From Escherichia coli (GTDB lineage: Bacteria > Pseudomonadota > Gammaproteobacteria > Enterobacterales > Enterobacteriaceae): a DNA stretch of 64,000 nt. The notes beneath the pieces are model-generated. The model was given only the letters and a program-made list of their open reading frames with translations. It did not search any database and was not told the origin of the DNA. Made by a program: the position numbers and the translations under genes. This document shows positions 1,478 to 58,293 of this stretch, in pieces. How positions within the stretch are numbered: the first letter of the stretch is position 1; each line of letters opens with the position of its first letter. The stretch is taken from the NCBI RefSeq assembly GCF_030013205.1, contig NZ_CP122648.1. One strand, given 5' to 3'.

Positions 1478-2150
1478 GTGCACAGAAAACCCCCAGCTAG
1501 GCTGGGGGTTCCGGAAAGCTTTCAGCTTTGAGCCAGTTATTAAAACCCCTTTTGATTTGTTAAAACACCTTGCGGTCTGGCAACTGCAAGTGTCAAACAA
1601 GAAATCAAAAGGGGGTCCCAATGGGGAACGAAAAGAGCTTAGCGCACACCCGATGGAACTGTAAATATCACATAGTTTTTGCGCCAAAATACCGAAGACA
1701 GGTGTTCTACAGAGAGAAGCGTAGAGCAATAGGCAGTATTTTGAGAAAGCTGTGTGAGTGGAAAAGCGTACGGATTCTGGAAGCTGAATGCTGTGCAGAT
1801 CATATCCATATGCTTGTGGAGATCCCGCCCAAAATGAGCGTATCCGGGTTTATGGGATATCTGAAAGGGAAAAGCAGTCTGATGCTTTACGAGCAGTTTG
1901 GTGATTTGAAATTCAAATACAGGAACAGGGAGTTCTGGTGCAGAGGGTACTACGTCGATACAGTGGGTAAGAACACGGCGAAGATACAGGATTACATAAA
2001 GCACCAGCTTGAAGAGGATAAAATGGGAGAGCAGTTATCGATTCCCTATCCGGGCAGCCCGTTTACGGGCCGTAAGTAACGAAGTTGGATGCAAATGTCA
2101 GATCGTGTGCGCCTGTTAGGGCGCGGCTGGTAAGAGAGCCTTATAGGCGC
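1478..2150 (+). mobile_element. IS200-like insertion sequence (IS200/IS605 family); boundaries approximate
   Basis: carries a 152-aa Y1/HUH transposase ORF; perfect hairpin aaacccccagctaggctgggggtt near the left side; sits between two convergent-gene terminators; exact ends not determinable without a reference. Confidence 0.6.
1621..2079 (+). CDS. tnpA: IS200-type transposase TnpA (HUH/Y1 family)
   Basis: 152 aa from internal ATG of track ORF 1570..2079: MGNEKSLAHTRWNCKYHIVFAPKYRR... with HIH motif (ADHIHMLVEIPP); near-identical to IS200 TnpA as I recall it. Confidence 0.9.
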   Translation: MGNEKSLAHTRWNCKYHIVFAPKYRRQVFYREKRRAIGSILRKLCEWKSVRILEAECCADHIHMLVEIPPKMSVSGFMGYLKGKSSLMLYEQFGDLKFKYRNREFWCRGYYVDTVGKNTAKIQDYIKHQLEEDKMGEQLSIPYPGSPFTGRK

Positions 2151-2202
2151 ATTTGAAAAACCTCCGGCTATGCCGGAGGATATTTATTTTTGAGCGCACG
2201 AC

Positions 2203-3270
2203 TTAATTGGTTGCCGGATATTCCTGAATGGTGACCTGCAGCGTTAACTGCTTATCATCACGCATCACTACAACCGGGATCACCGAGCCAGGGCGAATTT
2301 CCGCCACCTGATCCATCGTCTCCAGAGCAGAGATGGCCGGTTTGTTATCCACCGAAATAATCAAATCGTTGACCTGAATACCCGCATTCGCCGCCGGGCC
2401 GTCAGGTGACACTTCATTAACCACGATCCCTTGCAGTTGATCTATACCACCGCCCTGCGCGTGCAGTGGTGCGATCTCACGTCCGCCGATACCAATGTAG
2501 CCGCGGATCACGCGACCATCGCGGATCAGCTTATCCATAATTTTGGTTGCTAACTGGAAAGGAATCGCAAAGCCGATGCCTTCCGGCGTTTCGCCATCGT
2601 TACTCTTATCAAACGACAGCGTGTTAATGCCCATCAGTTCGCCCAGCGAGTTCACCAGCGCGCCGCCAGAGTTACCGTGGTTAATGGAAGCATCTGTTTG
2701 CAGGAAGTTTTGCCGCCCGGTCGGGTTCAGACCAATTCGACCCGTGGCACTAATAATCCCCTGGGTAATGGTCTGCCCGAGGTTGTATGGGTTACCGATC
2801 GCCAGTACCACGTCACCAATGTGCGGTACGCGACGTGCATTGATTGGAATGGTAGGTAAACCGCCAGTGGCATTAATTTTAAGTACCGCCAGATCGGTTA
2901 GAGAGTCAGATCCCACCAGCAATGCTTCAAATACACGTCCATCCTGTAAGGCGACGATGATCTGATCGGCGTCGTTGATGACGTGTTTATTGGTGATGAT
3001 ATAACCGCGTTGATCCATGATTACACCGGATCCCAGGGTGCGGATCTCAAGCTGGTTGTGAGAGTTGGTGTTCAAACCACGGTTGTAAACGTTAACCACC
3101 GCTGGCGCGGCGCGGCGAACCGCCAGATTATAGCTGGCAGGCGTCTCATCGGTACTGTCAAATTGCGGAGTGGAAAGCGGGTTAAGGCTGCGCAGCGAAG
3201 GCATGGCAACCAGCAGAATAGCGCCGACAATTAATCCAATCGCAACGGAACGTAAGAGCTTCACAAACAT
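2203..3270 (-). CDS. degS: periplasmic serine endoprotease DegS
   Basis: 355 aa, MFVKLLRSVAIGLIVGAILL..., trypsin-like protease plus PDZ; matches E. coli DegS. Confidence 0.96.
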   Translation of the reverse strand: MFVKLLRSVAIGLIVGAILLVAMPSLRSLNPLSTPQFDSTDETPASYNLAVRRAAPAVVNVYNRGLNTNSHNQLEIRTLGSGVIMDQRGYIITNKHVINDADQIIVALQDGRVFEALLVGSDSLTDLAVLKINATGGLPTIPINARRVPHIGDVVLAIGNPYNLGQTITQGIISATGRIGLNPTGRQNFLQTDASINHGNSGGALVNSLGELMGINTLSFDKSNDGETPEGIGFAIPFQLATKIMDKLIRDGRVIRGYIGIGGREIAPLHAQGGGIDQLQGIVVNEVSPDGPAANAGIQVNDLIISVDNKPAISALETMDQVAEIRPGSVIPVVVMRDDKQLTLQVTIQEYPATN

Positions 3271-3359
3271 GATGGAGGCGTCATTAAAAAAGGGAACGGC
3301 AGCAGCATACCACGAGTTAACCGGACATCACACGTCAGCCTGATGCCCGGTTTACGACA

Positions 3360-4727
3360 TTAACGCATCAGCAGATAGATGCTTTCATTGCCGCGTACAA
3401 TTTGCAGGGCGATGATGGCCGGTTTTGCCGCCAGCACTTTACGCATTTCAGCAATCGAGTTCACCCGATCGCGGTTGACGCCAATGATCACATCGTCTTT
3501 TTGCAAGCCAGCCTGAGCAGCTGGGCTTCCTTTGACAACCTCATCGATCTTAATACCTTTGCCGCCATCTTTTAGCTGACCATCGCTCAACGTTGCACCT
3601 TCAAGCGCTGGCGTGATCATTTCAGCGCTGGCCGACGAAGAGGTGCTGGTATCGAGCGTCACTTCTACTTCCAGTGGTTTGCCGTTACGCAGCAGGCCAA
3701 GCTTCACTTTCGTGCCCGGCTCGGTGGTTGCGATACGAGAGCGCAACTCAGCAAAGCTATTCAGCGGTTTGCCGTTGAGGCTGGTAATAATATCGCCCGC
3801 TTTGACGCCCGCTTTTGCCGAGCCAGAACCTGGCAACACTTCGCTGACAAACGCGCCACGCTGCACGTCAAGGTTGAAGGCTTTGGCGATATCGGCACTC
3901 ATCTCGGTGCCTTTGATGCCTAACAAACCGCGTTTGATTTCACCAAAGTCGATAAGCTGCTGCGCCAGTGTTCGCGCCATATTACTGGGGATGGCAAATC
4001 CAATCCCGACGCTCCCGCCGCCAGGCGCAAGGATTGCAGTGTTGATGCCAATTAACTCACCGTTAAGGTTTAACAGTGCACCGCCGGAGTTACCGCGGTT
4101 AATGGAAGCATCTGTCTGGATAAAGTTTTCCAGACCTTCAAGATTCAACCCACTGCGGCCTAATGCGGAAACAATGCCAGAGGTGGCGGTTTGCCCAAGG
4201 CCAAATGGGTTACCGACCGCCACGGCAAAATCACCGACGCGCAATTTATCGGAGTCGGCAATAGCGATTTGCGTTAATTTGCTCGGGTTTTGAATTTGCA
4301 ACAGGGCGATATCGCTCTGGTCATCGCTACCAATCAGTTTTGCATCAAACTCGCGCCCATCATTGAGCTGAATACTGATTTTCTGTGCCTGATTAATCAC
4401 ATGGTTGTTAGTCAGCACATAGCCTTTACTGGCGTTGATGATGACACCGGAGCCTAAACCTTCGAAGGGTTGTGCCGGTTGATCCGGTAAATCATCACCA
4501 AAAAACTTTTTGAATTCTTCCGGGATTTTCTGTCCCTGACTGGCCGTTCCTTCCACCCGTACGCTCACCACTGCCGGAAGCACTTTTTCCAGCATTGGGG
4601 CCAGACTGGGGAGGGGGGCCTGATCGGCAACCTGGCCTGGAATCGACGCGACGGCCTGAAATGACGCCGAGAGAGTTAACCCGACACTTAACGCTAATGC
4701 ACTCAACAGCTGGGTTTGTTTTTTCAT
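3360..4727 (-). CDS. degQ: periplasmic serine endoprotease DegQ
   Basis: 455 aa from MKKQTQLLSALALSVGL (track ORF has upstream extension); protease plus two PDZ domains. Confidence 0.95.
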   Translation of the reverse strand: MKKQTQLLSALALSVGLTLSASFQAVASIPGQVADQAPLPSLAPMLEKVLPAVVSVRVEGTASQGQKIPEEFKKFFGDDLPDQPAQPFEGLGSGVIINASKGYVLTNNHVINQAQKISIQLNDGREFDAKLIGSDDQSDIALLQIQNPSKLTQIAIADSDKLRVGDFAVAVGNPFGLGQTATSGIVSALGRSGLNLEGLENFIQTDASINRGNSGGALLNLNGELIGINTAILAPGGGSVGIGFAIPSNMARTLAQQLIDFGEIKRGLLGIKGTEMSADIAKAFNLDVQRGAFVSEVLPGSGSAKAGVKAGDIITSLNGKPLNSFAELRSRIATTEPGTKVKLGLLRNGKPLEVEVTLDTSTSSSASAEMITPALEGATLSDGQLKDGGKGIKIDEVVKGSPAAQAGLQKDDVIIGVNRDRVNSIAEMRKVLAAKPAIIALQIVRGNESIYLLMR

Positions 4728-4880
4728 TATTCCTGCTCTCGTACCTGAATGATAAGAAAAGAGATTCAAAACAGTTTGATGTTATTGAATTTTCAGACGG
4801 CTAACAATGAGACACCAGATTAAATGATAGTCGGGGAGGGAGAGAAGAGGAGGGCGCAATGGCTGCGCCCGAAAAATAAA

Positions 4881-5279
4881 TTAGTCGCGCTTCGCGCCAG
4901 TACGCAGCAGGCCGGACGCGCCTTCAGAATAGTCGCGAGGCATCTGCACCGGTGCCTGATCGTTGCTGGCTTCAGACTCTGCCAGACGATTACGGAACGG
5001 GTTTGCTTCAGCAGACAGTTCCGGCAGCAGGCTGCTGGAGCTTTTCGCCATGTGCTGATACAGCTGGCGATAGTCGTGCGCCATGGTATCCAGTAATTCC
5101 GCGCTGCGGGCAAAGTGGCTAACCAGCTCTTCGCGATACTCGTCCAGTTCAGCTTTATTCTTTTCCAGTTCGTACTGCAACGCCTGTTGCTGGCGTAGTT
5201 TACGATTACCAAAACGCATGGCCACAGCACCAATAATGATGCCGACGACTAACCCAATTAGCGCATATTCCCAGGTCAT
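4881..5279 (-). CDS. zapG: inner-membrane cell-division associated protein ZapG/YhcB
   Basis: 132 aa from MTWEYALIGLVVGIIIGAV; N-terminal TM helix then coiled coil; matches YhcB. Confidence 0.92.
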   Translation of the reverse strand: MTWEYALIGLVVGIIIGAVAMRFGNRKLRQQQALQYELEKNKAELDEYREELVSHFARSAELLDTMAHDYRQLYQHMAKSSSSLLPELSAEANPFRNRLAESEASNDQAPVQMPRDYSEGASGLLRTGAKRD

Positions 5280-5472
5280 GAACATCTCCCGTTGTCTTTT
5301 GTTTCCGTAGGGTGTTGGCTTCAGGCTCCATGCCTGCGGCTGATTATGCCACTATAACCGTTAATTCCACAGAAGTGGAATCCCGACTGCATATCGCGTA
5401 GTGTAGAACGGCCTTTTTTTCGTCAACCGTGAACAACGGCGCACCGATTATTCAAGGAATAACAATAAGATC

Positions 5473-6600
5473 ATGCAAAGCGTTACCCCAACATCGCAAT
5501 ACCTGAAGGCGCTCAATGAAGGCAGCCATCAACCCGACGACGTTCAAAAAGAGGCCGTCAGCCGCCTGGAAATTATTTATCAGGAACTCATCAATAGCAC
5601 GCCTCCAGCCCCCAGGACGAGTGGGCTAATGGCGCGGGTCGGTAAGCTGTGGGGTAAACGCGAAGACACAAAGCATACGCCAGTGCGTGGCTTATATATG
5701 TGGGGCGGTGTAGGACGCGGGAAAACCTGGCTGATGGACCTTTTCTATCAAAGCCTGCCGGGAGAGCGGAAACAGCGTCTGCACTTTCACCGTTTTATGC
5801 TGCGGGTGCACGAAGAGCTGACCGAATTACAAGGCCAAAGCGATCCGCTGGAAATTATTGCCGATCGCTTTAAAGCAGAAACTGACGTGCTCTGTTTTGA
5901 CGAATTTTTTGTTTCTGATATTACCGATGCCATGCTACTTGGCGGTCTGATGAAAGCCCTGTTCGCCCGCGGTATTACCCTGGTAGCGACGTCAAATATT
6001 CCGCCGGACGAACTTTATCGAAATGGCCTACAACGTGCGCGTTTTTTGCCTGCAATCGATGCCATTAAACAGCATTGTGATGTAATGAACGTGGACGCTG
6101 GTGTTGATTATCGACTGCGTACACTCACTCAGGCGCATCTGTGGCTTTCGCCCCTCAACGATGAAATCCGGGCGCAAATGGATAAACTATGGTTGGCGCT
6201 GGCGGGGGCGAAACGAGAAAATTCACCGACGTTAGAAATCAACCATCGGCCATTGGCGACAATGGGCGTCGAGAACCAGACGCTGGCGGTCTCTTTTACT
6301 ACGCTGTGCGTCGACGCCCGCAGTCAGCATGACTATATTGCGCTCTCACGCCTCTTTCATACGGTCATGTTGTTTGATGTACCAGTTATGACTCGGTTGA
6401 TGGAGAGTGAAGCGCGGCGCTTTATTGCGCTGGTGGATGAGTTTTACGAGCGCCATGTCAAATTAGTGGTGAGTGCAGAAGTGCCGCTATATGACATTTA
6501 TCAGGGCGAGCGGCTGGAATTTGAGTTCCTGCGTTGCCTGTCACGTCTGCAAGAGATGCAAAGCGAAGAGTATCTGAAGCGCGAGCATTTAGCGGGTTAA
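5473..6600 (+). CDS. zapE: AFG1-like ATPase ZapE
   Basis: 375 aa with Walker A GGVGRGKT; matches E. coli ZapE (YhcM). Confidence 0.93.
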   Translation: MQSVTPTSQYLKALNEGSHQPDDVQKEAVSRLEIIYQELINSTPPAPRTSGLMARVGKLWGKREDTKHTPVRGLYMWGGVGRGKTWLMDLFYQSLPGERKQRLHFHRFMLRVHEELTELQGQSDPLEIIADRFKAETDVLCFDEFFVSDITDAMLLGGLMKALFARGITLVATSNIPPDELYRNGLQRARFLPAIDAIKQHCDVMNVDAGVDYRLRTLTQAHLWLSPLNDEIRAQMDKLWLALAGAKRENSPTLEINHRPLATMGVENQTLAVSFTTLCVDARSQHDYIALSRLFHTVMLFDVPVMTRLMESEARRFIALVDEFYERHVKLVVSAEVPLYDIYQGERLEFEFLRCLSRLQEMQSEEYLKREHLAG

Positions 6601-6731
6601 AACCTGCCACAAATCACAAAAAGGGGTCGATCTTTGACCCCGACTTCTCTATAATCCTGCGACCCCACGTTACAAGAAAGTTTTTTTCCCAAAACTTTTT
6701 GTGTGCTGGCATAGGCTATTCGAAGGGGTAG

Positions 6732-7247
<516 letters not shown>

Positions 7248-7259
7248 TCGGGATTATAG

Positions 7260-7655
<396 letters not shown>

Positions 7656-7687
7656 TTGGCTTCTGCTCCGGCAGAAAACAATTTGCG

Positions 7688-7716
7688 AAAAAACCCGCTT
7701 CGGCGGGTTTTTTTAT
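7688..7716 (+). terminator. intrinsic terminator after rplM-rpsI
   Basis: aaaaaacccgcttcggcgggttttttt hairpin plus U-run downstream of the rpsI stop. Confidence 0.75.
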
Positions 7717-8049
7717 GGCTAAATTCTGAATCAGCGTAAAAAATGGAAAGTTGCTTTTTGCTGCCGTCTGACAGACAGGCAAAACAAAAACCACATCGCC
7801 AATAAGGGACTAAGTCAACTATTTCAGACTAAAGCGCATCTCTTTTTCCCCATTTCCGGCATCGACTCACCACAAAGGTCGCAAAATCTGGTAAACTATC
7901 ATCCAATTTTCTGCCCAAATGTCGGGTATTGCTCATTTTTTGTTTGATTTTCGAACAAAGAGAGTCGTTCCTTACTGGGTAACACAACTTCTGACTGGCC
8001 ACCTGGTGGCTGGTAGCAGTAAAAATTCTGACTATACCTGGAGGTTTTC

Positions 8050-8688
8050 ATGGCTGTCGCTGCCAACAAACGTTCGGTAATGACGCTGTTTTCCGGTCCT
8101 ACTGACATCTATAGCCATCAGGTCCGCATTGTGCTGGCTGAGAAAGGTGTAAGTTTCGAGATCGAACACGTGGAAAAGGACAATCCGCCTCAGGATCTGA
8201 TTGACCTCAACCCGAATCAGAGCGTTCCGACTCTGGTGGATCGTGAGCTGACCCTGTGGGAATCTCGCATCATTATGGAATATCTGGATGAGCGTTTCCC
8301 GCATCCGCCACTGATGCCTGTTTACCCGGTAGCTCGCGGTGAAAGCCGTCTGTACATGCATCGCATCGAAAAAGACTGGTACACGCTGATGAACACCATC
8401 ATCAACGGTTCAGCTTCTGAAGCAGATGCCGCACGTAAGCAACTGCGCGAAGAACTGCTGGCGATTGCGCCGGTCTTCGGTCAGAAGCCGTACTTCCTGA
8501 GCGATGAGTTCAGCCTGGTCGATTGCTACCTTGCTCCGCTGCTGTGGCGTCTGCCGCAACTGGGTATCGAGTTCAGCGGCCCGGGTGCGAAAGAGCTGAA
8601 AGGCTATATGACCCGCGTCTTTGAGCGTGACTCTTTCCTTGCTTCTTTAACTGAAGCTGAACGTGAAATGCGTCTGGGCCGGAGTTAA
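8050..8688 (+). CDS. sspA: stringent starvation protein A
   Basis: 212 aa MAVAANKRSVMTLFSGPTDIYSHQVRIVLAEKG...; GST-like fold. Confidence 0.96.
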   Translation: MAVAANKRSVMTLFSGPTDIYSHQVRIVLAEKGVSFEIEHVEKDNPPQDLIDLNPNQSVPTLVDRELTLWESRIIMEYLDERFPHPPLMPVYPVARGESRLYMHRIEKDWYTLMNTIINGSASEADAARKQLREELLAIAPVFGQKPYFLSDEFSLVDCYLAPLLWRLPQLGIEFSGPGAKELKGYMTRVFERDSFLASLTEAEREMRLGRS

Positions 8689-8693
8689 TCTGT

Positions 8694-9191
8694 ATGGATT
8701 TGTCACAGCTAACACCACGTCGTCCCTATCTGCTGCGTGCATTCTATGAGTGGTTGCTGGATAACCAGCTCACGCCGCACCTGGTGGTGGATGTGACGCT
8801 CCCTGGCGTGCAGGTTCCTATGGAATATGCGCGTGACGGGCAAATCGTACTCAACATTGCGCCGCGTGCTGTCGGCAATCTGGAACTGGCGAATGATGAG
8901 GTGCGCTTTAACGCGCGCTTTGGTGGCATTCCGCGTCAGGTTTCTGTGCCGCTGGCTGCCGTGCTGGCTATCTACGCCCGTGAAAATGGCGCAGGCACGA
9001 TGTTTGAACCTGAAGCTGCCTACGATGAAGATGCCAGCATCATGAATGATGAAGAGGCATCGGCAGACAACGAAACCGTTATGTCGGTTATTGATGGCGA
9101 CAAGCCAGATCACGATGATGACACTCATCCTGACGATGAACCACCGCAGCCACCACGTGGTGGTCGACCAGCATTACGCGTTGTGAAGTAA
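8694..9191 (+). CDS. sspB: ClpXP specificity-enhancing adaptor SspB
   Basis: 165 aa MDLSQLTPRRPYLLRAFYEWLLDNQLTPHLVV... with acidic C-terminal tail ending ALRVVK. Confidence 0.96.
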   Translation: MDLSQLTPRRPYLLRAFYEWLLDNQLTPHLVVDVTLPGVQVPMEYARDGQIVLNIAPRAVGNLELANDEVRFNARFGGIPRQVSVPLAAVLAIYARENGAGTMFEPEAAYDEDASIMNDEEASADNETVMSVIDGDKPDHDDDTHPDDEPPQPPRGGRPALRVVK

Positions 9192-9195
9192 TACT

Positions 9196-9228
9196 AAAAC
9201 AGGCCCTGGCGGCCTGTTTTGTCTTTTT
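9196..9228. terminator. bidirectional terminator between sspB and dcuD
   Basis: aaaacaggccctggcggcctgtttt hairpin with flanking A/T runs between convergent genes. Confidence 0.65.
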
Positions 9229-9234
9229 AATCGC

Positions 9235-10602
9235 TTAATAAAATAGCGTGATAGTGGCAATCATATTCACCACGAAACCGACTGCCATGGGGATCGCTGT
9301 CCGCTTCACTACCGCAAAAGGCGAAACGCCTGCAATTCCTGACGTAACGACCACCACCGCAGTAATCGGCGAAACAGCGCGCGCTAGCGTCGTGGCAAAA
9401 TGCATCGGCATAATCATTACAACCGCTGGTACATGTAGTCCGGCTGCGATATTCGGAATAAGACTGGCAAATGACATAAACGGCGCATTGCCTGAGCCCA
9501 TCACAATGGCACAAATGGCAATGACCAGCGCCATAATAATCATCACGCCAATACCGCCCAGACCAGAATGCTCCGCCCCCCTGATAACCGCATCGACAGT
9601 GCCAATCGTCGTTAAGCCTTTCGCAAATATTTCACCCGCGACCACCAGCGTTACCACGTTGGCAAACTGCGTACCCATGCCATCAAAAAACGCCTGCACA
9701 TCGTCCATTGTTTCGCGCAAGTTATGCTTGCGGAAGAACTCAACAAACATCGTCACCGTCAAACTCAGTAACATCACCACCACCAGATGCAGTTCTGACT
9801 GCATCAGCCCGACGTGGGCAAGGAACAGCGAGCCGAGCATCAGGATTAACGGCATCACCGGTAAAATGGCGTAATAGAGCGGCGGGACATTATCGAGAGC
9901 TTTTTGCTCTGCCTGTTCGTGATTGATATTTTTATCTTTTTTGTCGAAAGCGCGTTGCACGAAAAAGTGGGAGATCGCCACCGAGATAATGACGCAAGAG
10001 GCGACCGGAAGCTGGTAGTGGAAGAAGTAAGTGGCAATTTTCATTCCTGCGACCTGGGCAGCAAAAATGGAGTTCGTTTCCAGAATCCCCCACTCAATGG
10101 ACATGGTGGTTGCGATAACCGCCACCGCAGAGAGACTACTTACTCCCAGACTCACCAGCGTCGGAAATAAGGTGACCATCAGCAACATACCCAGACCGGA
10201 GGCGCTGGTAATAAACTGCGCCATGATTTGGCCGATGACGTAAGTTGCCGACAGAATAATATACGGCGAGCGAATGAGTTTTAACGGGCGGCTTAACAAG
10301 CTCACCATCGCGCGACTTGCCCCTATGCGCTCCATATAGCGGGCATAACCGCCCACTGCCATAATCGACAGCCCCAATCCGGCAATGCGGTTGGACAGCA
10401 TGCGCAGGATTTCATTATAAATATCGACGATCAAGTAGCCGCTGCTTTTGGCGGGATCGAGCACACCACCGAACCCTAACCAGACACCGCACATCATCAG
10501 GAAGATACCTGCGGCAGCCAGCACCACCTGAGGTTTGTAGTTTTTCAGGATCAAATAGCCCATCGTAATTAATACGATGACAGATATAATTATGCCGAAC
10601 AT
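9235..10602 (-). CDS. dcuD: C4-dicarboxylate transporter family protein DcuD
   Basis: 455 aa from [25 protein letters not shown] (internal ATG; track ORF starts at an upstream TTG); polytopic membrane protein. Confidence 0.9.
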
Positions 10603-10981
10603 TGTTGAACTCCGTGTCAAAAGAAAACGGTCAATCCCATAAACGGCAGATTGAAAACAATGATGTTATATTTTTTGCAAGGCTATTTATGGTGCGGATG
10701 TCGTGTTTTTAATTGTAGGTGAGGTGATTTTTCATTAAAAAATATGCGCTTATGATTATTTTGTAAGAACACATTTATAATATTCATAATGCTCGTGAAT
10801 AGTCTTATAAATAATTCAATCGGGATGTTTTTATCTGCGTTACATTAATTTTTCGCAATAGTTAATTATTCCGTTAATTATGGTAATGATGAGGCACAAA
10901 GAGAAAACCCTGCCATTTTCCCCTACTTTCAATCCTGTGATAGGATGTCACTGATGATGTTAATCACACTGACCTTACAGA

Positions 10982-11773
10982 ATGGGCCTTATGAACGCAT
11001 TTGATTCGCAAACCGAAGATTCTTCACCTGCAATTGGTCGCAACTTGCGTAGCCGCCCGCTGGCGCGTAAAAAACTCTCCGAAATGGTGGAAGAAGAGCT
11101 GGAACAGATGATCCGCCGTCGTGAATTTGGCGAAGGTGAACAATTACCGTCTGAACGCGAACTGATGGCGTTCTTTAACGTCGGGCGTCCTTCGGTGCGC
11201 GAAGCGCTGGCAGCGTTAAAACGCAAAGGTCTGGTGCAGATAAACAACGGCGAACGCGCTCGCGTCTCACGTCCTTCTGCGGACACCATCATCGGCGAGC
11301 TTTCCGGCATGGCGAAAGATTTCCTTTCTCATCCTGGCGGGATTGCCCATTTCGAACAATTACGTCTGTTCTTTGAATCCAGCCTGGTGCGCTATGCGGC
11401 TGAACACGCCACCGATGAACAAATCGATTTGCTGGCAAAAGCACTGGAAATCAACAGTCAGTCGCTGGATAACAACGCGGCATTCATTCGCTCAGACGTT
11501 GATTTCCACCGCGTTCTGGCGGAGATCCCCGGTAACCCAATCTTCATGGCGATCCACGTTGCTCTGCTCGACTGGCTGATCGCCGCACGTCCAACCGTGG
11601 CTGATCAGGCTCTGCACGAGCATAACAACGTTAGCTATCAACAGCATATTGCGATCGTTGACGCGATCCGCCGCCACGATCCCGATGAAGCCGATCGCGC
11701 GTTGCAATCGCATCTCAACAGCGTCTCTGCTACCTGGCACGCCTTCGGTCAGACCACCAACAAAAAGAAATAA
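10982..11773 (+). CDS. nanR: GntR/FadR-family repressor of sialic acid catabolism NanR
   Basis: 263 aa [32 protein letters not shown]...; N-terminal wHTH. Confidence 0.95.
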
Positions 11774-11836
11774 TGCCACTTTAGTGAAGCAGATCGCATT
11801 ATAAGCTTTCTGTATGGGGTGTTGCTTAATTGATCT

Positions 11837-11859
11837 GGTATAACAGGTATAAAGGTATA
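11837..11859 (+). promoter_or_regulatory. NanR operator: three tandem GGTATA repeats in the nanA promoter
   Basis: ggtataacaggtataaaggtata read directly about 40 bp upstream of the nanA start; matches the known GGTATA-repeat NanR site. Confidence 0.75.
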
Positions 11860-11894
11860 TCGTTTATCAGACAAGCATCACTTCAGAGGTATTT

Positions 11895-12788
11895 ATGGCA
11901 ACGAATTTACGTGGCGTAATGGCCGCACTCCTGACTCCTTTTGACCAACAACAAGCACTGGATAAAGCGAGTCTGCGCCGCCTAGTTCAGTTCAATATTC
12001 AGCAGGGCATCGACGGCTTATACGTGGGTGGTTCGACCGGCGAAGCCTTTGTACAAAGCCTTTCCGAGCGTGAACAGGTACTGGAAATCGTCGCCGAAGA
12101 GGCGAAAGGCAAGATTAAACTCATCGCCCACGTTGGTTGCGTCAGCACTGCTGAAAGCCAACAACTTGCGGCATCGGCTAAACGTTATGGCTTCGATGCC
12201 GTCTCCGCCGTCACGCCGTTCTACTATCCTTTCAGCTTTGAAGAACACTGCGATCACTATCGGGCAATTATTGATTCAGCGGATGGGTTGCCGATGGTGG
12301 TGTACAACATTCCAGCCCTGAGCGGGGTAAAACTGACCCTGGATCAAATCAACACACTTGTTACGTTGCCTGGCGTCGGTGCGCTGAAACAGACTTCTGG
12401 CGATCTCTATCAGATGGAACAGATCCGTCGTGAACATCCTGATCTGGTGCTCTATAACGGTTACGACGAAATCTTCGCCTCTGGTCTTCTGGCGGGCGCT
12501 GATGGTGGTATCGGTAGTACCTACAACATCATGGGCTGGCGTTATCAGGGGATTGTGAAGGCGCTGAAAGAAGGCGATATCCAGACCGCGCAGAAGCTGC
12601 AAACCGAATGTAATAAAGTCATTGATTTACTGATCAAAACGGGCGTATTCCGCGGCCTGAAAACGGTCCTGCATTATATGGATGTCGTTTCTGTGCCGCT
12701 GTGCCGCAAACCGTTTGGACCGGTAGATGAAAAATATCTGCCAGAACTGAAGGCGCTGGCCCAGCAGTTGATGCAAGAGCGCGGGTGA
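11895..12788 (+). CDS. nanA: N-acetylneuraminate lyase
   Basis: 297 aa [31 protein letters not shown]...; class I aldolase. Confidence 0.96.
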
Positions 12789-12896
12789 GTTGTTTCCCCT
12801 CGCTCGCCCCTACCGGGTGAGGGGAAATAAACGCATCTGTACCCTACAATTTTCATACCAAAGCGTGTGGGCATCGCCCACCGCGGGAGACTCACA

Positions 12897-14387
12897 ATGA
12901 GTACTACAACCCAGAATATCCCGTGGTATCGCCATCTCAATCGTGCACAATGGCGGGCATTTTCCGCTGCCTGGTTGGGATATCTGCTTGACGGTTTTGA
13001 TTTCGTTTTAATCGCCCTGGTACTCACCGAAGTACAAGGTGAATTCGGGCTGACGACGGTGCAGGCGGCAAGTCTGATCTCCGCAGCCTTTATCTCTCGC
13101 TGGTTCGGCGGCCTGATGCTCGGCGCTATGGGTGACCGCTACGGGCGTCGTCTGGCAATGGTCACCAGCATCGTTCTCTTCTCGGCCGGGACGCTGGCCT
13201 GCGGCTTTGCGCCAGGCTACATCACCATGTTTATCGCTCGTCTGGTCATCGGCATGGGGATGGCGGGTGAATACGGTTCCAGCGCCACCTATGTCATTGA
13301 AAGCTGGCCAAAACATCTGCGTAATAAAGCCAGTGGTTTTCTGATTTCCGGCTTCTCTGTGGGGGCCGTCGTTGCCGCTCAGGTCTATAGCCTGGTGGTT
13401 CCGGTCTGGGGCTGGCGTGCGCTGTTCTTTATCGGCATTTTGCCAATCATCTTTGCTCTCTGGCTGCGTAAAAACATCCCGGAAGCGGAAGACTGGAAAG
13501 AGAAACATGCTGGTAAAGCACCAGTACGCACGATGGTAGATATTCTCTACCGTGGTGAACATCGCATTGCCAATATCGTAATGACACTGGCGGCGGCTAC
13601 TGCGCTGTGGTTTTGCTTCGCCGGTAACCTGCAAAATGCCGCGATCGTCGCTGTTCTTGGGCTGTTATGCGCCGCAATCTTTATCAGCTTTATGGTGCAA
13701 AGTACGGGCAAACGCTGGCCAACGGGCGTAATGCTGATGGTGGTCGTGTTGTTTGCTTTCCTCTACTCATGGCCGATTCAGGCGCTGCTGCCAACGTATC
13801 TGAAAACCGATCTGGCTTATAACCCGCATACTGTCGCCAATGTGCTGTTCTTTAGTGGCTTTGGCGCGGCGGTGGGATGCTGCGTAGGTGGCTTCCTCGG
13901 TGACTGGCTGGGAACCCGCAAAGCGTACGTTTGTAGCCTGCTGGCCTCGCAGCTGCTGATTATTCCGGTATTTGCGATTGGCGGCGCAAACGTCTGGGTG
14001 CTCGGTCTGTTACTGTTCTTCCAGCAAATGCTTGGACAAGGGATCGCCGGGATCTTACCGAAACTGATTGGCGGTTATTTCGATACCGACCAGCGTGCAG
14101 CGGGCCTGGGCTTTACCTACAACGTCGGCGCATTGGGCGGTGCACTGGCCCCAATCATCGGCGCGTTGATCGCTCAACGTCTGGATCTGGGTACTGCGCT
14201 GGCATCGCTCTCGTTCAGTCTGACATTTGTGGTGATCCTGCTGATTGGTCTGGATATGCCTTCCCGCGTTCAGCGTTGGCTGCGCCCGGAAGCATTGCGT
14301 ACTCATGACGCTATCGACGGCAAACCATTTAGCGGTGCCGTGCCATTTGGCCGCGCCAAAAACGATTTAGTCAAAACCAAAAGTTAA
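12897..14387 (+). CDS. nanT: sialic acid:H+ symporter (MFS)
   Basis: 496 aa from [22 protein letters not shown] (internal ATG; track ORF starts at an upstream GTG). Confidence 0.95.
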
Positions 14388-14434
14388 TCCTGTTGCCCGG
14401 TCTCTGTACCGGGCCTTTCGCTAAGGGAAGATGT

Positions 14435-15120
14435 ATGTCGTTACTTGCACAACTGGATCAAAAAATCGCTGCTAACGGTGGCCTGATTGTCTCCTGCCAG
14501 CCGGTTCCGGACAGCCCGCTCGATAAACCCGAAATCGTCGCCGCCATGGCATTAGCGGCAGAACAGGCGGGCGCGGTTGCCATTCGCATTGAAGGTGTGG
14601 CAAATCTGCAAGCCACGCGTGCGGTGGTGAGCGTGCCAATTATCGGGATTGTGAAACGCGATCTGGAGGATTCTCCGGTACGCATCACGGCCTATATTGA
14701 AGATGTTGATGCGCTGGCGCAGGCGGGCGCGGACATTATCGCCATTGACGGCACCGACCGCCCGCGTCCGGTGCCTGTTGAAACGTTGCTGGCACGTATT
14801 CACCATCACGGTTTACTGGCGATGACCGACTGCTCAACGCCGGAAGACGGCCTGGCATGCCAAAAGCTGGGAGCCGAAATTATTGGCACTACGCTTTCTG
14901 GCTATACCACGCCTGAAACGCCAGAAGAGCCGGATCTGGCGCTGGTGAAAACGTTGAGCGACGCCGGATGTCGGGTGATTGCCGAAGGGCGTTACAACAC
15001 GCCTGCTCAGGCGGCAGATGCGATGCGCCACGGCGCGTGGGCGGTGACGGTCGGTTCTGCCATTACGCGTCTTGAACACATTTGTCAGTGGTACAACACA
15101 GCGATGAAAAAGGCGGTGCT

Positions 15121-15124
<4 letters not shown>
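14435..15124 (+). CDS. nanE: N-acetylmannosamine-6-phosphate 2-epimerase
   Basis: 229 aa from [23 protein letters not shown]. Confidence 0.95.
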
Positions 15125-16457
<1,333 letters not shown>

Positions 16458-16516
16458 AACTTAGTTCGTTTTAAAGATTCTGCAGACACTGTCTGCAGAA
16501 TTCGAAACCGCTGAAA

Positions 16517-17629
16517 TTAACGGCGTCTATAGCCTTCCTCTAGCACCGCCTGTGTTCGAACGAGTTCATCCGCGAGTCGTTTTTCATCAGGTAGTTGCAT
16601 CTTATATTCGCTCGCCAGAACGGTGTTAGGCAAACCAGCCAGTGCATAATACGCTTCGCCGGCTCCTTTCTCTGCACAGAGAACCAGACCGATGGGCGGA
16701 TTTTCATCCGGTAGTGTCCAGTGCTCTTTGGCGTAGTTGAGATACATATTCATCTGTCCGGCATCGCTATAGCTGAATTTGCCCACTTTTAGATCGACGA
16801 TTAGCAGGCAGCGTAAACGGCGGTGGAAAAACAGCAGATCGACACGAAACCAGTTGTCATCAATGCGTAACCTTCGCTGTCGACCAACAAAGGCAAAATC
16901 ATCCCCAAGTTCCAGCATGAAATCCATCAGGTGGTTGATCAGCGCCTCCTCAAAATCGGATTCTGAGTATTCATCTTTCAATTCCAGAAATTCGAGCACA
17001 AAGGGATCGCGTATCGCCTGCTGCGGAAGAATATGCGTCTCGGTAGGAGCGTGTTGTTGCAGCATGGCTGATTTGTCATGTGACAGTAGTGTCCGCTCAT
17101 AAAACTGGGTCGCAATTTGTCGTTCGAGCTGACGAGCAGACCAGCCACAGCGGAGTGTCTCTTTCTCATAAAAGCTGCGAGCATCAGCTTTTTTAACAGA
17201 AAGCAAACGGACGTAAGTGGACCAGGGCAGGGGGAAGGATTTGGCGAGTTGCGCTAAATGGCAAGATTCTCCAGACACAGTCTGGAGAATTGTGGGGGTG
17301 AATTGTGCAGACAGTGTCTGCACAATTTCAATTCTTTGAAAACAAATATAAAAATTCTTAAACTGCCATAAATTCCTGGTGGAAAATCCACGCTTATACC
17401 TTAGACTTAAATCCTTTGATAGTCGCTTGATTAGCTGCGCACCATACGCAGCCCTGGCCTCGCCACCTTGTTCAAATTCGACAATTCGTCGGCCAATTTC
17501 CCAGTACGTCGCGGTCATTAACGCGTTAACGCTACGTACCGTTTCCGTTCGGGCGCTATCGACCAGATGAATAATGCCGTCGTGGATTTGCTGGTAGCCT
17601 GCTGTGGTTCCTTCTGAGAGCGATTCCAT
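16517..17629 (-). CDS. yhcG: DUF1016 / YhcG-family putative PD-(D/E)XK nuclease
   Basis: 370 aa; C-terminal RVDLLFFH...LLIVDLKVGK resembles a PD-(D/E)XK core; contains an internal 12-residue tandem repeat encoded by palindromic DNA (see findings). Confidence 0.8.
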   Translation of the reverse strand: MESLSEGTTAGYQQIHDGIIHLVDSARTETVRSVNALMTATYWEIGRRIVEFEQGGEARAAYGAQLIKRLSKDLSLRYKRGFSTRNLWQFKNFYICFQRIEIVQTLSAQFTPTILQTVSGESCHLAQLAKSFPLPWSTYVRLLSVKKADARSFYEKETLRCGWSARQLERQIATQFYERTLLSHDKSAMLQQHAPTETHILPQQAIRDPFVLEFLELKDEYSESDFEEALINHLMDFMLELGDDFAFVGRQRRLRIDDNWFRVDLLFFHRRLRCLLIVDLKVGKFSYSDAGQMNMYLNYAKEHWTLPDENPPIGLVLCAEKGAGEAYYALAGLPNTVLASEYKMQLPDEKRLADELVRTQAVLEEGYRRR

Positions 17630-17812
17630 TATCTGTCCCTTAATATGGCGCAGTGTTGAATAATGGAATCAGCTATACGCCGGGCATCTGCCGGTAACAA
17701 TCCAGATGTGCGTATTACATTGGTTTTCTTCAGATTATGCGAGGCGCTTTCCAGAACGAAAGGAGAATTTCAGCGCCGACTCTTTTCTGAGGAGGCGGCG
17801 CTGGGACAGAGC

Positions 17813-47846: not shown

Positions 47847-47852
47847 TCAGCA

Positions 47853-47877
47853 AAACCCCGGCCATGTGCCGGGGTTT
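47853..47877. terminator. bidirectional terminator between obgE and dacB
   Basis: aaaaccccggccatgtgccggggttt hairpin between convergent genes. Confidence 0.7.
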
Positions 47878-56667: not shown

Positions 56668-58293
56668 ATGACAGTATTCAACAAATTTGTTAGAAGTTTT
56701 AAATCTCATTGGTTGTTGTATCTTTGTGTTATTGTTTTTGGTATTACGAACTTAGTCGCCTCTTCCGGAGCGCATATGGTTCAGCGATTGCTGTTCTTCG
56801 TTCTGACCATCCTGGTTGTTAAACGTATATCATCCCTTTCGCTTCGCCTGCTTGTTGCCGCACCATTTGTGTTACTGACAGCGGCAGACATGAGTATTAG
56901 CCTCTATTCATGGTGTACCTTTGGTACAACTTTCAATGATGGATTTGCGATTAGCGTGCTGCAGAGTGATCCGGATGAAGTTGTCAAAATGCTGGGGATG
57001 TATATCCCTTATCTATGTGCTTTTGCCTTTTTATCCCTTCTTTTTTTTGCAGTAATAATAAAATATGATGTTTCCTTGCCGACGAAAAAAGTGACAGGAA
57101 TATTATTGCTGATTGTCATTTCGGGCAGTTTATTTTCCGCTTGTCAATTTGCTTATAAAGATGCAAAAAATAAAAAAGCGTTCAGTCCATATATACTAGC
57201 GTCGCGATTTGCTACCTATACACCGTTTTTCAATCTCAATTATTTTGCTTTAGCAGCGAAAGAGCATCAAAGATTACTCTCAATTGCAAACACGGTGCCG
57301 TATTTTCAATTATCAGTCAGGGATACAGGTATTGATACCTACGTGTTGATTGTGGGGGAGTCTGTACGTGTCGACAATATGTCTTTGTATGGATATACAC
57401 GCTCTACGACACCGCAAGTCGAAGCACAAAGAAAACAGATCAAACTGTTTAATCAAGCAATAAGCGGTGCACCTTACACTGCGCTGTCGGTTCCCCTTTC
57501 TTTAACTGCTGATTCTGTTTTGAGTCATGACATTCATAATTACCCGGACAACATTATTAATATGGCTAATCAAGCAGGATTTCAGACTTTCTGGCTAAGC
57601 TCGCAATCCGCTTTTCGGCAGAATGGTACAGCAGTTACCAGTATCGCCATGCGCGCCATGGAAACAGTCTATGTCAGAGGATTTGATGAATTGTTGTTGC
57701 CGCATTTATCGCAAGCGTTAAAGCAAAAGACGCAGCAAAAGAAACTGATTGTTCTTCATTTAAATGGAAGCCATGAACCGGCTTGTAGCGCCTATCCGCA
57801 ATCCAGCGCCGTGTTTCAACCGCAGGACGATCAGGATGCCTGCTATGACAACTCCATTCATTACACAGATAGTTTGCTAGGTCAGATTTTTGAATTATTA
57901 AAAGATCGCCGCGCCTCGGTCATGTATTTTGCCGACCACGGCCTGGAACGTGACCCTACGAAGAAGAACGTCTATTTTCATGGAGGCAGGGAGGCTAGCC
58001 AGCAGGCATATCATGTCCCGATGTTTATCTGGTATAGCCCCGTTCTTGGGGATGGCGTGGATCGCACAACGGAAAACAACATCTTTTCCACAGCTTACAA
58101 TAATTACCTGATTAATGCGTGGATGGGGGTAACAAAGCCGGAACAACCGAAAACGCTGGAGGAAGTGATTGCACACTATAAAGGAGACTCACGGGTTGTG
58201 GATGCAAACCATGATGTTTTCGATTATGTGATGCTCAGAAAGGAGTTTACAGAGGATAAGCAAGGTAACCCCACCCCTGAAGGGCAGGGTTGA
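56668..58293 (+). CDS. yhbX: putative phosphoethanolamine transferase (EptA-like sulfatase-family membrane protein) YhbX
   Basis: 541 aa from MTVFNKFVRSFKSHWLLYLCV (internal ATG); N-terminal TM segments, C-terminal sulfatase-like domain; visibly AT-rich compared with neighbours. Confidence 0.85.
   Translation: MTVFNKFVRSFKSHWLLYLCVIVFGITNLVASSGAHMVQRLLFFVLTILVVKRISSLSLRLLVAAPFVLLTAADMSISLYSWCTFGTTFNDGFAISVLQSDPDEVVKMLGMYIPYLCAFAFLSLLFFAVIIKYDVSLPTKKVTGILLLIVISGSLFSACQFAYKDAKNKKAFSPYILASRFATYTPFFNLNYFALAAKEHQRLLSIANTVPYFQLSVRDTGIDTYVLIVGESVRVDNMSLYGYTRSTTPQVEAQRKQIKLFNQAISGAPYTALSVPLSLTADSVLSHDIHNYPDNIINMANQAGFQTFWLSSQSAFRQNGTAVTSIAMRAMETVYVRGFDELLLPHLSQALKQKTQQKKLIVLHLNGSHEPACSAYPQSSAVFQPQDDQDACYDNSIHYTDSLLGQIFELLKDRRASVMYFADHGLERDPTKKNVYFHGGREASQQAYHVPMFIWYSPVLGDGVDRTTENNIFSTAYNNYLINAWMGVTKPEQPKTLEEVIAHYKGDSRVVDANHDVFDYVMLRKEFTEDKQGNPTPEGQG

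What the first reader, a model, noticed from the sequence alone, without database searches (positions are those of the whole stretch)
11837..11859. NanR operator intact: three tandem GGTATA repeats
The sequence ggtataacaggtataaaggtata lies just upstream of nanA. This matches the known NanR-binding arrangement and suggests the nanATEK-yhcH operon is still under normal sialic-acid control in this strain.
Basis: partly seen in the sequence, partly recalled or inferred. Interest (0 to 1): 0.2.

Follow-up and report, generated by a model that had tools for sequence, protein, structure and literature searches.

The report
Intact NanR operator upstream of nanA
This is the ordinary, already well-characterised binding site for the E. 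coli sialic-acid repressor NanR in front of the nanA operon, base-for-base identical to the laboratory strain K-12 and to almost every other sequenced E. coli.

Summary
The string GGTATAACAGGTATAAAGGTATA is exactly at window 11837-11859 (+), is unique in the window, and never appears in shuffled controls. It lies 35 nt upstream of the nanA start codon, in the 121-bp gap between nanR (10982-11773) and nanA (11895-12788). nanT, nanE, nanK and nanQ/yhcH follow, all full length. The whole 121-bp gap is 100% identical to E. coli K-12 MG1655, although the flanking nanR and nanA genes differ from K-12 at 3-4% of bases. A 40-mer centred on the repeats is exact in about 5,350 of 5,426 complete E. coli genomes. 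The 31-nt block TCTGGTATAACAGGTATAAAGGTATATCGTT is also invariant in two Enterobacter species. Repeat number (3) and spacers (3 and 2 nt) match the published operator, which binds three NanR dimers cooperatively and releases them when N-acetylneuraminate is present. The adjacent NanR is intact. Its single difference from K-12, T207A, is a recurrent natural allele and lies outside every published DNA-, ligand- and zinc-contact residue. The feature is already known and of low interest. The only mildly new side observation is that similar GGTATA arrays lie next to NanR-like regulators in Synergistales and an alphaproteobacterial metagenome bin, and next to a more distant GntR regulator in Hungatella/Enterocloster.

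The parts
10982..11773 (+). nanR, encoding the GntR/FadR-type repressor NanR (263 aa)
   Evidence: NCBIfam NF003011 NanR scores 408.9 bits against a cutoff of 260. It has one amino-acid difference (T207A) from K-12 and is identical to WP_000523844.1 in strains CFSAN018748 and PEC41. It matches PDB 6ON4/6WFQ/6WG7 NanR over residues 1-263.
11780..11801 (+). CRP-like site TTTAGTGAAGCAGATCGCATTA, centred at 11790.5 (inferred activator site)
   Evidence: The core matches 8 of 10 positions of TGTGA-N6-TCACA. It is the second conserved block in the E. coli/Enterobacter alignment and is identical to K-12. Its function was not tested here.
11834..11864 (+). 31-nt invariant block TCTGGTATAACAGGTATAAAGGTATATCGTT, which contains the operator (phylogenetic footprint)
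   Evidence: It is the longest run of invariant columns among E. coli and two Enterobacter species whose NanR is about 83% identical. Its size fits the roughly 30-bp NanR footprint reported by Kalivoda 2003, which I cite from my own knowledge of the abstract because the paper is not held.
11837..11842 (+). GGTATA repeat 1
11846..11851 (+). GGTATA repeat 2 (spacer ACA before it)
11854..11859 (+). GGTATA repeat 3 (spacer AA before it)
   Evidence: A natural variant, GGTGTA, occurs in strain PEC41.
11839..11844 (+). Candidate -10 hexamer TATAAC inside repeat 1 (inferred)
   Evidence: It matches TATAAT at 5 of 6 positions and predicts a +1 near 11851, which puts the CRP-like site at about -60.5/-61.5. 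The two best -10-like hexamers (5/6) with class-I-compatible spacing from the CRP-like site both lie inside the operator, and only a weak 4/6 match (TATCAG, 11865-11870) lies just outside it. The strict sigma-70 scan found no consensus promoter, as expected for an activator-dependent promoter.
11895..12788 (+). nanA, N-acetylneuraminate lyase (297 aa)
   Evidence: TIGR00683 scores 571.5 bits. The protein is identical to K-12.
12897..14387 (+). nanT, sialate:H+ symporter (496 aa)
   Evidence: NF003024 scores 947.8 bits. There are 2 amino-acid differences from K-12.
14435..15124 (+). nanE, ManNAc-6-P 2-epimerase (229 aa)
   Evidence: NF002231 scores 340.1 bits. The protein is identical to K-12.
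15121..15996 (+). nanK, N-acetylmannosamine kinase (291 aa)
   Evidence: NF047821 scores 509.5 bits. There are 9 amino-acid differences from K-12 and the protein is full length.
15993..16457 (+). nanQ/yhcH, N-acetylneuraminate anomerase (154 aa)
   Evidence: NF040884 scores 235.8 bits. There are 4 amino-acid differences from K-12.

Best explanation
The 23-bp array at 11837-11859 is the NanR operator of the nanATEK-yhcH (nanATEKQ) promoter. [quoted passage not shown] When N-acetylneuraminate enters the cell it binds the C-terminal domain of NanR together with Zn2+, and this weakens DNA binding so that the operon is induced. Shown here: the sequence, spacing, position, conservation, and the integrity of the operator, repressor, CRP-like site and structural genes. 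Taken from the literature: the stoichiometry, cooperativity and effector response, all measured on the identical K-12 sequence. Inferred: the exact position of the -10 hexamer and +1, and that this strain behaves like K-12.
For: The 23-mer is present, unique, and absent from all shuffles. The intergenic region is 121/121 identical to K-12 MG1655, while nanR and nanA differ at 30/792 and 28/894 nt. At the flanking rate about 4 changes would be expected in 121 nt, and the Poisson probability of none is about 0.016 (hand calculation). The 40-mer 11829-11868 gives a best match of at least 99% identity in 5354 of 5421 matching records, and 5408 of 5426 genomes have a place covering at least 80% of it. 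The 31-nt block around the repeats is invariant in two Enterobacter species while other intergenic positions vary. K-12's nanX/yjhB operator carries the identical 23-mer, and the nanC operator has two perfect repeats plus GGTGCA, all preceded by TGATCT. The literature reports three GGTATA repeats separated by 2-3 nt (PMC3658417). It also reports three dimers, KD of 20-39 nM, Hill coefficient near 2, poor binding to one repeat, attenuated binding when the spacers are lengthened by 6 nt, and attenuation by Neu5Ac (PMC8012715). NanR is intact with every named DNA, Neu5Ac and Zn residue present.
Against: No binding, footprint or expression data exist for this strain. The transcription start could not be read from a held paper: Kalivoda 2003, Kalivoda 2013 and Vimr 2004 are all absent from the library. 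The overlap with the -10 hexamer and +1 is therefore my inference, supported by my recollection of the 2003 abstract ('about 30 bp covering the promoter region'). [quoted passage not shown] The consensus promoter scan found nothing in 11700-11960. NanR carries T207A relative to the protein used in the structural work, and its effect is untested.
Confidence: 0.95

Rival explanations
1. The operator is intact but regulation in this strain differs from K-12, because the NanR T207A allele or some unlinked factor changes repression or inducer sensitivity.
For: There is one amino-acid difference from K-12 in the effector-binding domain. It lies near Arg203, which contacts Neu5Ac.
Against: A207 is the allele in the window and in all three other natural E. 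coli isolates sampled: CFSAN018748 and PEC41 have the identical protein, and MMC-J-0066 differs only at residue 258. It is also the residue in an Enterobacter orthologue, so T207 was seen only in K-12 in this small sample. Residue 207 is not in the published lists of DNA, Neu5Ac or Zn contacts.
Confidence: 0.04
2. The three GGTATA are a chance or compositional feature of an AT-rich promoter (reiterated TATA-like -10 hexamers) and have no specific repressor-binding role.
For: Each repeat contains a TATA core that resembles a -10 element. Single GGTATA hexamers occur at about the chance rate in the window.
Against: The array never occurs in shuffles. It is invariant across about 5,400 E. coli genomes and in Enterobacter while the flanks vary. 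The same 23-mer recurs at the unlinked, NanR-co-regulated nanX promoter. Direct binding to this exact sequence is published.
Confidence: 0.005
3. The conserved block is an RNA element in the nanA 5' leader, not a DNA operator.
For: If +1 is near 11851, part of the array would be transcribed.
Against: There is no Rfam match in 10500-12500 even at E<=1. The repeats are direct, not inverted, and the only inverted repeats in the gap are 6-nt chance-sized ones.
Confidence: 0.005

Closest known systems
E. coli K-12 nanA (nanATEK-yhcH) NanR operator (Kalivoda et al. 2003, PMID 12897000; Horne et al. 2021, PMC8012715)
   Same: The 23-mer is identical, as is the entire 121-bp nanR-nanA intergenic region. 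Gene order and position relative to the nanA ATG are the same.
   Different: Nothing differs in the operator or promoter. The flanking coding sequences are 3-4% diverged, and NanR carries A207 where K-12 has T207.
K-12 nanX/yjhB (nanXY) NanR operator
   Same: The 23-mer GGTATAACAGGTATAAAGGTATA and the TGATCT 5' flank are identical.
   Different: It is at a different locus that is not in this window. Its 3' flank differs (CAGAAAAG against TCGTTTAT), and it regulates a 2,7-anhydro-Neu5Ac transporter and hydratase.
K-12 nanC (nanCMS)/fimB-region NanR operator
   Same: It has the TGATCT flank and two perfect repeats with the same ACA spacer.
   Different: Its third repeat is degenerate (GGTGCA). 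It lies in the long nanC-fimB intergenic region. From my own knowledge (not tested here), NanR also acts there with NagC on fimB expression.
Canonical FadR-subfamily GntR operators (for example FadR, PDB 1HW2)
   Same: The repressor family and the winged-HTH major-groove recognition are the same. Horne 2021 superimposes NanR-DNA on FadR-DNA at RMSD 0.98 A.
   Different: Those operators are single palindromes bound by one dimer. The NanR site is three direct repeats bound by three dimers, with cooperativity through a 32-residue N-terminal extension.

Membership tests
E. coli NanR (GGTATA)3 operator of the sialoregulon | Three direct GGTATA hexamers | tested here: met
   Searches give three exact copies at 11837, 11846 and 11854.
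E. coli NanR (GGTATA)3 operator of the sialoregulon | Spacers of two or three nucleotides. Lengthening the spacers by 6 nt attenuates binding. | tested here: met
   The spacers are ACA (3) and AA (2), identical to K-12. The criterion comes from PMC3658417 and PMC8012715.
E. coli NanR (GGTATA)3 operator of the sialoregulon | Located in the promoter region of a sialoregulon operon (nanA, nanC or nanX), next to or controlled by nanR | tested here: met
   It lies 63 nt after the nanR stop codon and 35 nt before the nanA ATG. The genes were identified by NCBIfam equivalogs and by RefSeq annotation of matching records.
E. coli NanR (GGTATA)3 operator of the sialoregulon | Overlaps the core promoter or transcription start, so that bound NanR blocks RNA polymerase | tested here: inconclusive
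   The two best -10-like hexamers (5/6) with class-I-compatible spacing from the CRP-like site lie inside the array, and TATAAC at 11839-44 gives CRP at about -60.5. No mapped start site could be read, because the papers are not held.
E. coli NanR (GGTATA)3 operator of the sialoregulon | [quoted passage not shown] | tested here: met
   The protein is 263 aa and residues 1-206 and 208-263 are identical to K-12. All of S33, E58, G68, S71, R73, E91, R128, N165, F168, D172, H176, I200, R203, H214, N215, S218, Q221, H222, H244 and L245 are present.
E. coli NanR (GGTATA)3 operator of the sialoregulon | NanR binds the site with nanomolar affinity and is released by N-acetylneuraminate | not testable with these tools
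   This is published for the identical DNA sequence. It was not measured for this strain or for the A207 protein.

The most novel reading that the evidence does not exclude
The period-8/9 GGTATA direct-repeat array may be a conserved operator layout for a NanR-like clade of FadR-type GntR regulators well outside the Enterobacterales, not an E. coli/enterobacterial peculiarity. Exact (GGTATA)3 arrays with 2-nt spacers lie within 250 bp of such regulator genes in several distant lineages. One is a Synergistales genome (L030), where the regulator is 35% identical to NanR, keeps the LPSER(D/E)LM..F.VGRP..RE recognition motif, and lies next to a dehydrogenase and a TRAP transporter. Another is an alphaproteobacterial metagenome bin (L071, 53% identical). 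A more distant GntR/FCD regulator has one in Hungatella and Enterocloster (L055, L063, L014), next to a NanA/DapA-like lyase and a YhcH-family gene. If true, multi-dimer cooperative assembly on direct repeats would be an old and transferable regulatory design.
Probability: 0.35. Interest if true: 0.3.

Novelty: already known. Interest (0 to 1): 0.06.

Why it matters
It matters little beyond annotation. The result confirms that this strain keeps the textbook NanR/CRP-controlled sialic-acid catabolic operon unchanged, so growth on host sialic acid should be inducible as in K-12. The population figures give a useful baseline for spotting the rare strains that do carry operator variants, such as PEC41 with GGTGTA in repeat 3. 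Those figures are an exact 40-mer in roughly 98-99% of 5,426 complete genomes, and an intergenic region more conserved than its flanking genes.

Tried and rejected
(1) I scanned one genome per species for the exact GGTATA-N2-3-GGTATA-N2-3-GGTATA pattern. Most were unrelated 8-9-nt tandem repeats in Bacteroidota and other MAGs (for example L008 Pseudoalteromonas and L017 Shewanella microsatellites, with no nan or GntR gene nearby). It therefore does not give the phylogenetic distribution of the operator, and only 7 loci were informative.

(2) I tried to read the papers that mapped the promoter (PMC166481, PMC3807447, PMC362108). None is held, and further literature searches gave no transcription-start coordinates. 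The -10 and +1 placement stays an inference.

(3) The consensus sigma-70/terminator scan of 11700-11960 found nothing. This is uninformative for a CRP-dependent promoter.

I discarded that result and redid the comparison against the real MG1655 record. The outcome was the same: T207A.

(5) An Rfam search at E<=1 over 10500-12500 found nothing, so the RNA-element reading was rejected.

(6) A relaxed scan for further two-repeat NanR-like sites in the window found only weak 1-mismatch pairs at 57320, 37243 and 5345, which look like chance. I did not pursue them.

Full report
**Observation.** The sequence ggtataacaggtataaaggtata is at window 11837-11859 on the + strand, exactly as reported.
- It is the only match in the window even when 2 mismatches are allowed, and none of 100 dinucleotide-preserving shuffles produced one.
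- The architecture pattern GGTATA-N2-3-GGTATA-N2-3-GGTATA also occurs once, against zero in shuffles.
- Single GGTATA hexamers occur at roughly the chance rate (18 against 12.7 +/- 3.7), so the clustering is what is non-random.
- Start-to-start spacings are 9 and 8 nt, giving spacers ACA and AA.

**Context.** The array lies in a 121-bp gap between two + strand genes.
- Upstream is ORF 10982-11773 (263 aa), which matches NCBIfam 'transcriptional regulator NanR' at 408.9 bits against a cutoff of 260.
- Downstream is ORF 11895-12788 (297 aa), which matches the N-acetylneuraminate lyase equivalog at 571.5 bits.
- These are followed by nanT, nanE, nanK and the anomerase nanQ/yhcH, all above their curated cutoffs.
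- With K-12 start codons the genes are nanT 12897-14387, nanE 14435-15124, nanK 15121-15996 and nanQ 15993-16457. All are full length.
- RefSeq annotation of matching E. coli records names the flanking genes nanR and nanA.

- Window 11760-11910 aligns to MG1655 with 151 of 151 identical columns.
- The complete nanR-nanA intergenic region is 121/121 identical.
- The flanking coding sequences are not identical: nanR differs at 30/792 nt and nanA at 28/894 nt.
- At that rate about 4 differences would be expected in 121 nt, and the Poisson probability of none is about 0.016 (my arithmetic). This is modest evidence that the regulatory region is under tighter constraint than its genes.

**Population and cross-species conservation.**
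- A 261-bp query spanning the region matches 5,409 of 5,426 complete E. coli genomes.
- The 40-mer 11829-11868 gives a best match of at least 99% identity in 5,354 of 5,421 matching records, and 5,408 genomes have a place covering at least 80% of it.
- Two of the rare variants were read. Strain PEC41 has GGTGTA in the third repeat. Strain MMC-J-0066 has an extra T in the T-run just after the array.
- Two Enterobacter species with NanR about 83% identical (L018, L112) carry the identical 23-mer at the same position. Across the three-way alignment the longest invariant block is TCTGGTATAACAGGTATAAAGGTATATCGTT (window 11834-11864). Secondary conserved blocks lie at a CRP-like site and at the ribosome-binding site.

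**Comparison with the characterised operator.**
- Horne et al. [quoted passage not shown]
- They also show that one repeat binds poorly, two repeats give two complexes, and lengthening the spacers by six nucleotides attenuates binding.
- Removing residues 1-32 abolishes the higher-order complexes, and Neu5Ac attenuates DNA binding.
- The other K-12 operators fit the same pattern. The nanX/yjhB operator carries the identical 23-mer, and the nanC operator has two perfect repeats plus GGTGCA. Both are preceded by TGATCT, as in the window.

**Is the rest of the control circuit intact?**
- The window protein is identical to the NanR of CFSAN018748 and PEC41. MMC-J-0066 and an Enterobacter orthologue also have A207. 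T207 was therefore seen only in K-12 in this small sample.
- Residue 207 is not among the published Neu5Ac contacts: R128, N165, D172, H176, R203, H214, N215, S218, Q221, H244, F168, I200 and L245. It is also not among the Zn ligands (D172, H176, H222, H244) or the putative DNA contacts (S33, E58, G68, S71, R73, E91). All of these are present in the window protein.
- The protein matches PDB 6ON4/6WFQ/6WG7 over its whole length.

**Mechanism and what is inferred.**
- A CRP-like site (TTTAGTGAAGCAGATCGCATTA, core 8/10) is centred at 11790.5.
- Downstream of it, the two best -10-like hexamers (5/6 match) both fall inside the array, and only a weak 4/6 match (TATCAG, 11865-11870) lies just outside it.
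- TATAAC at 11839-11844 would put +1 near 11851 and CRP at about -60.5/-61.5, which is classic class-I geometry.
- The strict consensus scan found no sigma-70 promoter, as expected for an activator-dependent promoter.
- I could not read the papers that mapped the start site. That NanR occludes the -10 hexamer and +1 is therefore an inference. It is consistent with my recollection of the Kalivoda 2003 abstract (a footprint of about 30 bp 'covering the promoter region') and with the 31-nt invariant block.
- No RNA family matches the region, and there is no meaningful inverted repeat. These argue against an RNA-level element.

**Verdict.** This is the already known NanR operator, identical to the K-12 reference, nearly invariant in the species, and accompanied by an intact repressor, activator site and structural genes. 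What remains untested is function in this particular strain, which needs EMSA or a reporter assay. Interest is low.

**Side observations.**
- The species-wide pattern scan was mostly noise, but it turned up exact (GGTATA)3 arrays with 2-nt spacers within 250 bp of FadR-type GntR regulator genes outside the Enterobacterales.
  - Synergistales (L030): the regulator is 35% identical to NanR and scores 215.9 bits against the NanR subfamily model, below the cutoff. The array lies in the divergent intergenic region.
  - A 'Sphingomonadales' metagenome bin (L071): the regulator is 53% identical.
  - Hungatella/Enterocloster (L055, L063, L014): a more distant regulator, next to a NanA/DapA-like lyase and a YhcH-family gene.
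  - The first two keep the NanR-type recognition motif LPSER(D/E)LM..F.VGRP. The clostridial ones have the generic SRTP form.
  - This hints that the direct-repeat operator layout is wider than described, but it rests on a handful of loci.
- The window also differs structurally from K-12 in three places.
  - An IS200-family element lies at about 1481-2187, between mdh and degS.
  - gltF-yhcADEF is absent between yhcG and gltD.
  - About 152 bp of the dacB-obgE spacer is absent.

Noticed in passing
window 1481-2187: About 707 bp is absent from K-12 between mdh and degS. It encodes a 152-aa IS200-like Y1 transposase (Pfam PF01797, 130.7 bits), so this is an IS200-family insertion next to the mdh terminator hairpin.
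   Followed up: partly
window 17757-17810: yhcG (a PDDEXK/DUF1016 gene, 16517-17629, - strand) is joined almost directly to gltD. The K-12 genes gltF, yhcA, yhcD, yhcE (with IS5) and yhcF are absent. Strain CFSAN018748 (L003) has the same arrangement.
   Followed up: partly
window 47849-47856: About 152 bp of the K-12 dacB-obgE intergenic region is missing here and is replaced by about 6 bp. It may be a REP/BIME-type element that is present in K-12 only.
   Followed up: no
window 11774-11894 compared with 10982-11773 and 11895-12788: The nanR-nanA intergenic region is 0/121 different from K-12, while nanR and nanA differ at 3.8% and 3.1% of nucleotides. The whole block 2188-17756 is 97.5% identical to K-12, against 98.5-99.1% for the rest of the window.
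   Followed up: partly
window 15121-16457: NanK (9 of 291 aa) and NanQ/YhcH (4 of 154 aa) are the most diverged proteins of the operon relative to K-12, whereas NanA and NanE are identical at the protein level.
   Followed up: no
window 11888-11893: A fourth, imperfect copy (GGTATT) overlaps the nanA Shine-Dalgarno region (GAGGTATTTATG), and GAGGTAT is conserved in Enterobacter too. It lies 34 nt from repeat 3, so it is out of register with the array. It is probably just the ribosome-binding site.
   Followed up: no
L030 8520-8541; L071 1040-1062; L055 6003-6024; L063 6788-6809; L014 3602-3623: Exact (GGTATA)3 arrays lie within 25-250 bp of FadR-type GntR regulator genes outside the Enterobacterales. 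They occur in Synergistales and a Sphingomonadales MAG (NanR-like regulators) and in Hungatella/Enterocloster (a more distant GntR).
   Followed up: partly
L004 (strain PEC41) locus 1201-1240; one search hit H20 (strain EC96): Rare natural variants exist. PEC41 has GGTGTA in repeat 3. In EC96 only the nanA-coding part of the 261-bp query matched, which suggests a rearrangement or insertion upstream of nanA in that strain.
   Followed up: partly
L008 9135-9230 (Pseudoalteromonas sp. TB64); L017 431-500 (Shewanella sp.): Long tandem runs of GGTATAACT or GGTATAGAA (period 9, 10 or more copies) have no NanR or nan homologue within the fetched flanks. They appear to be microsatellite-like arrays that merely share the hexamer.
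   Followed up: no
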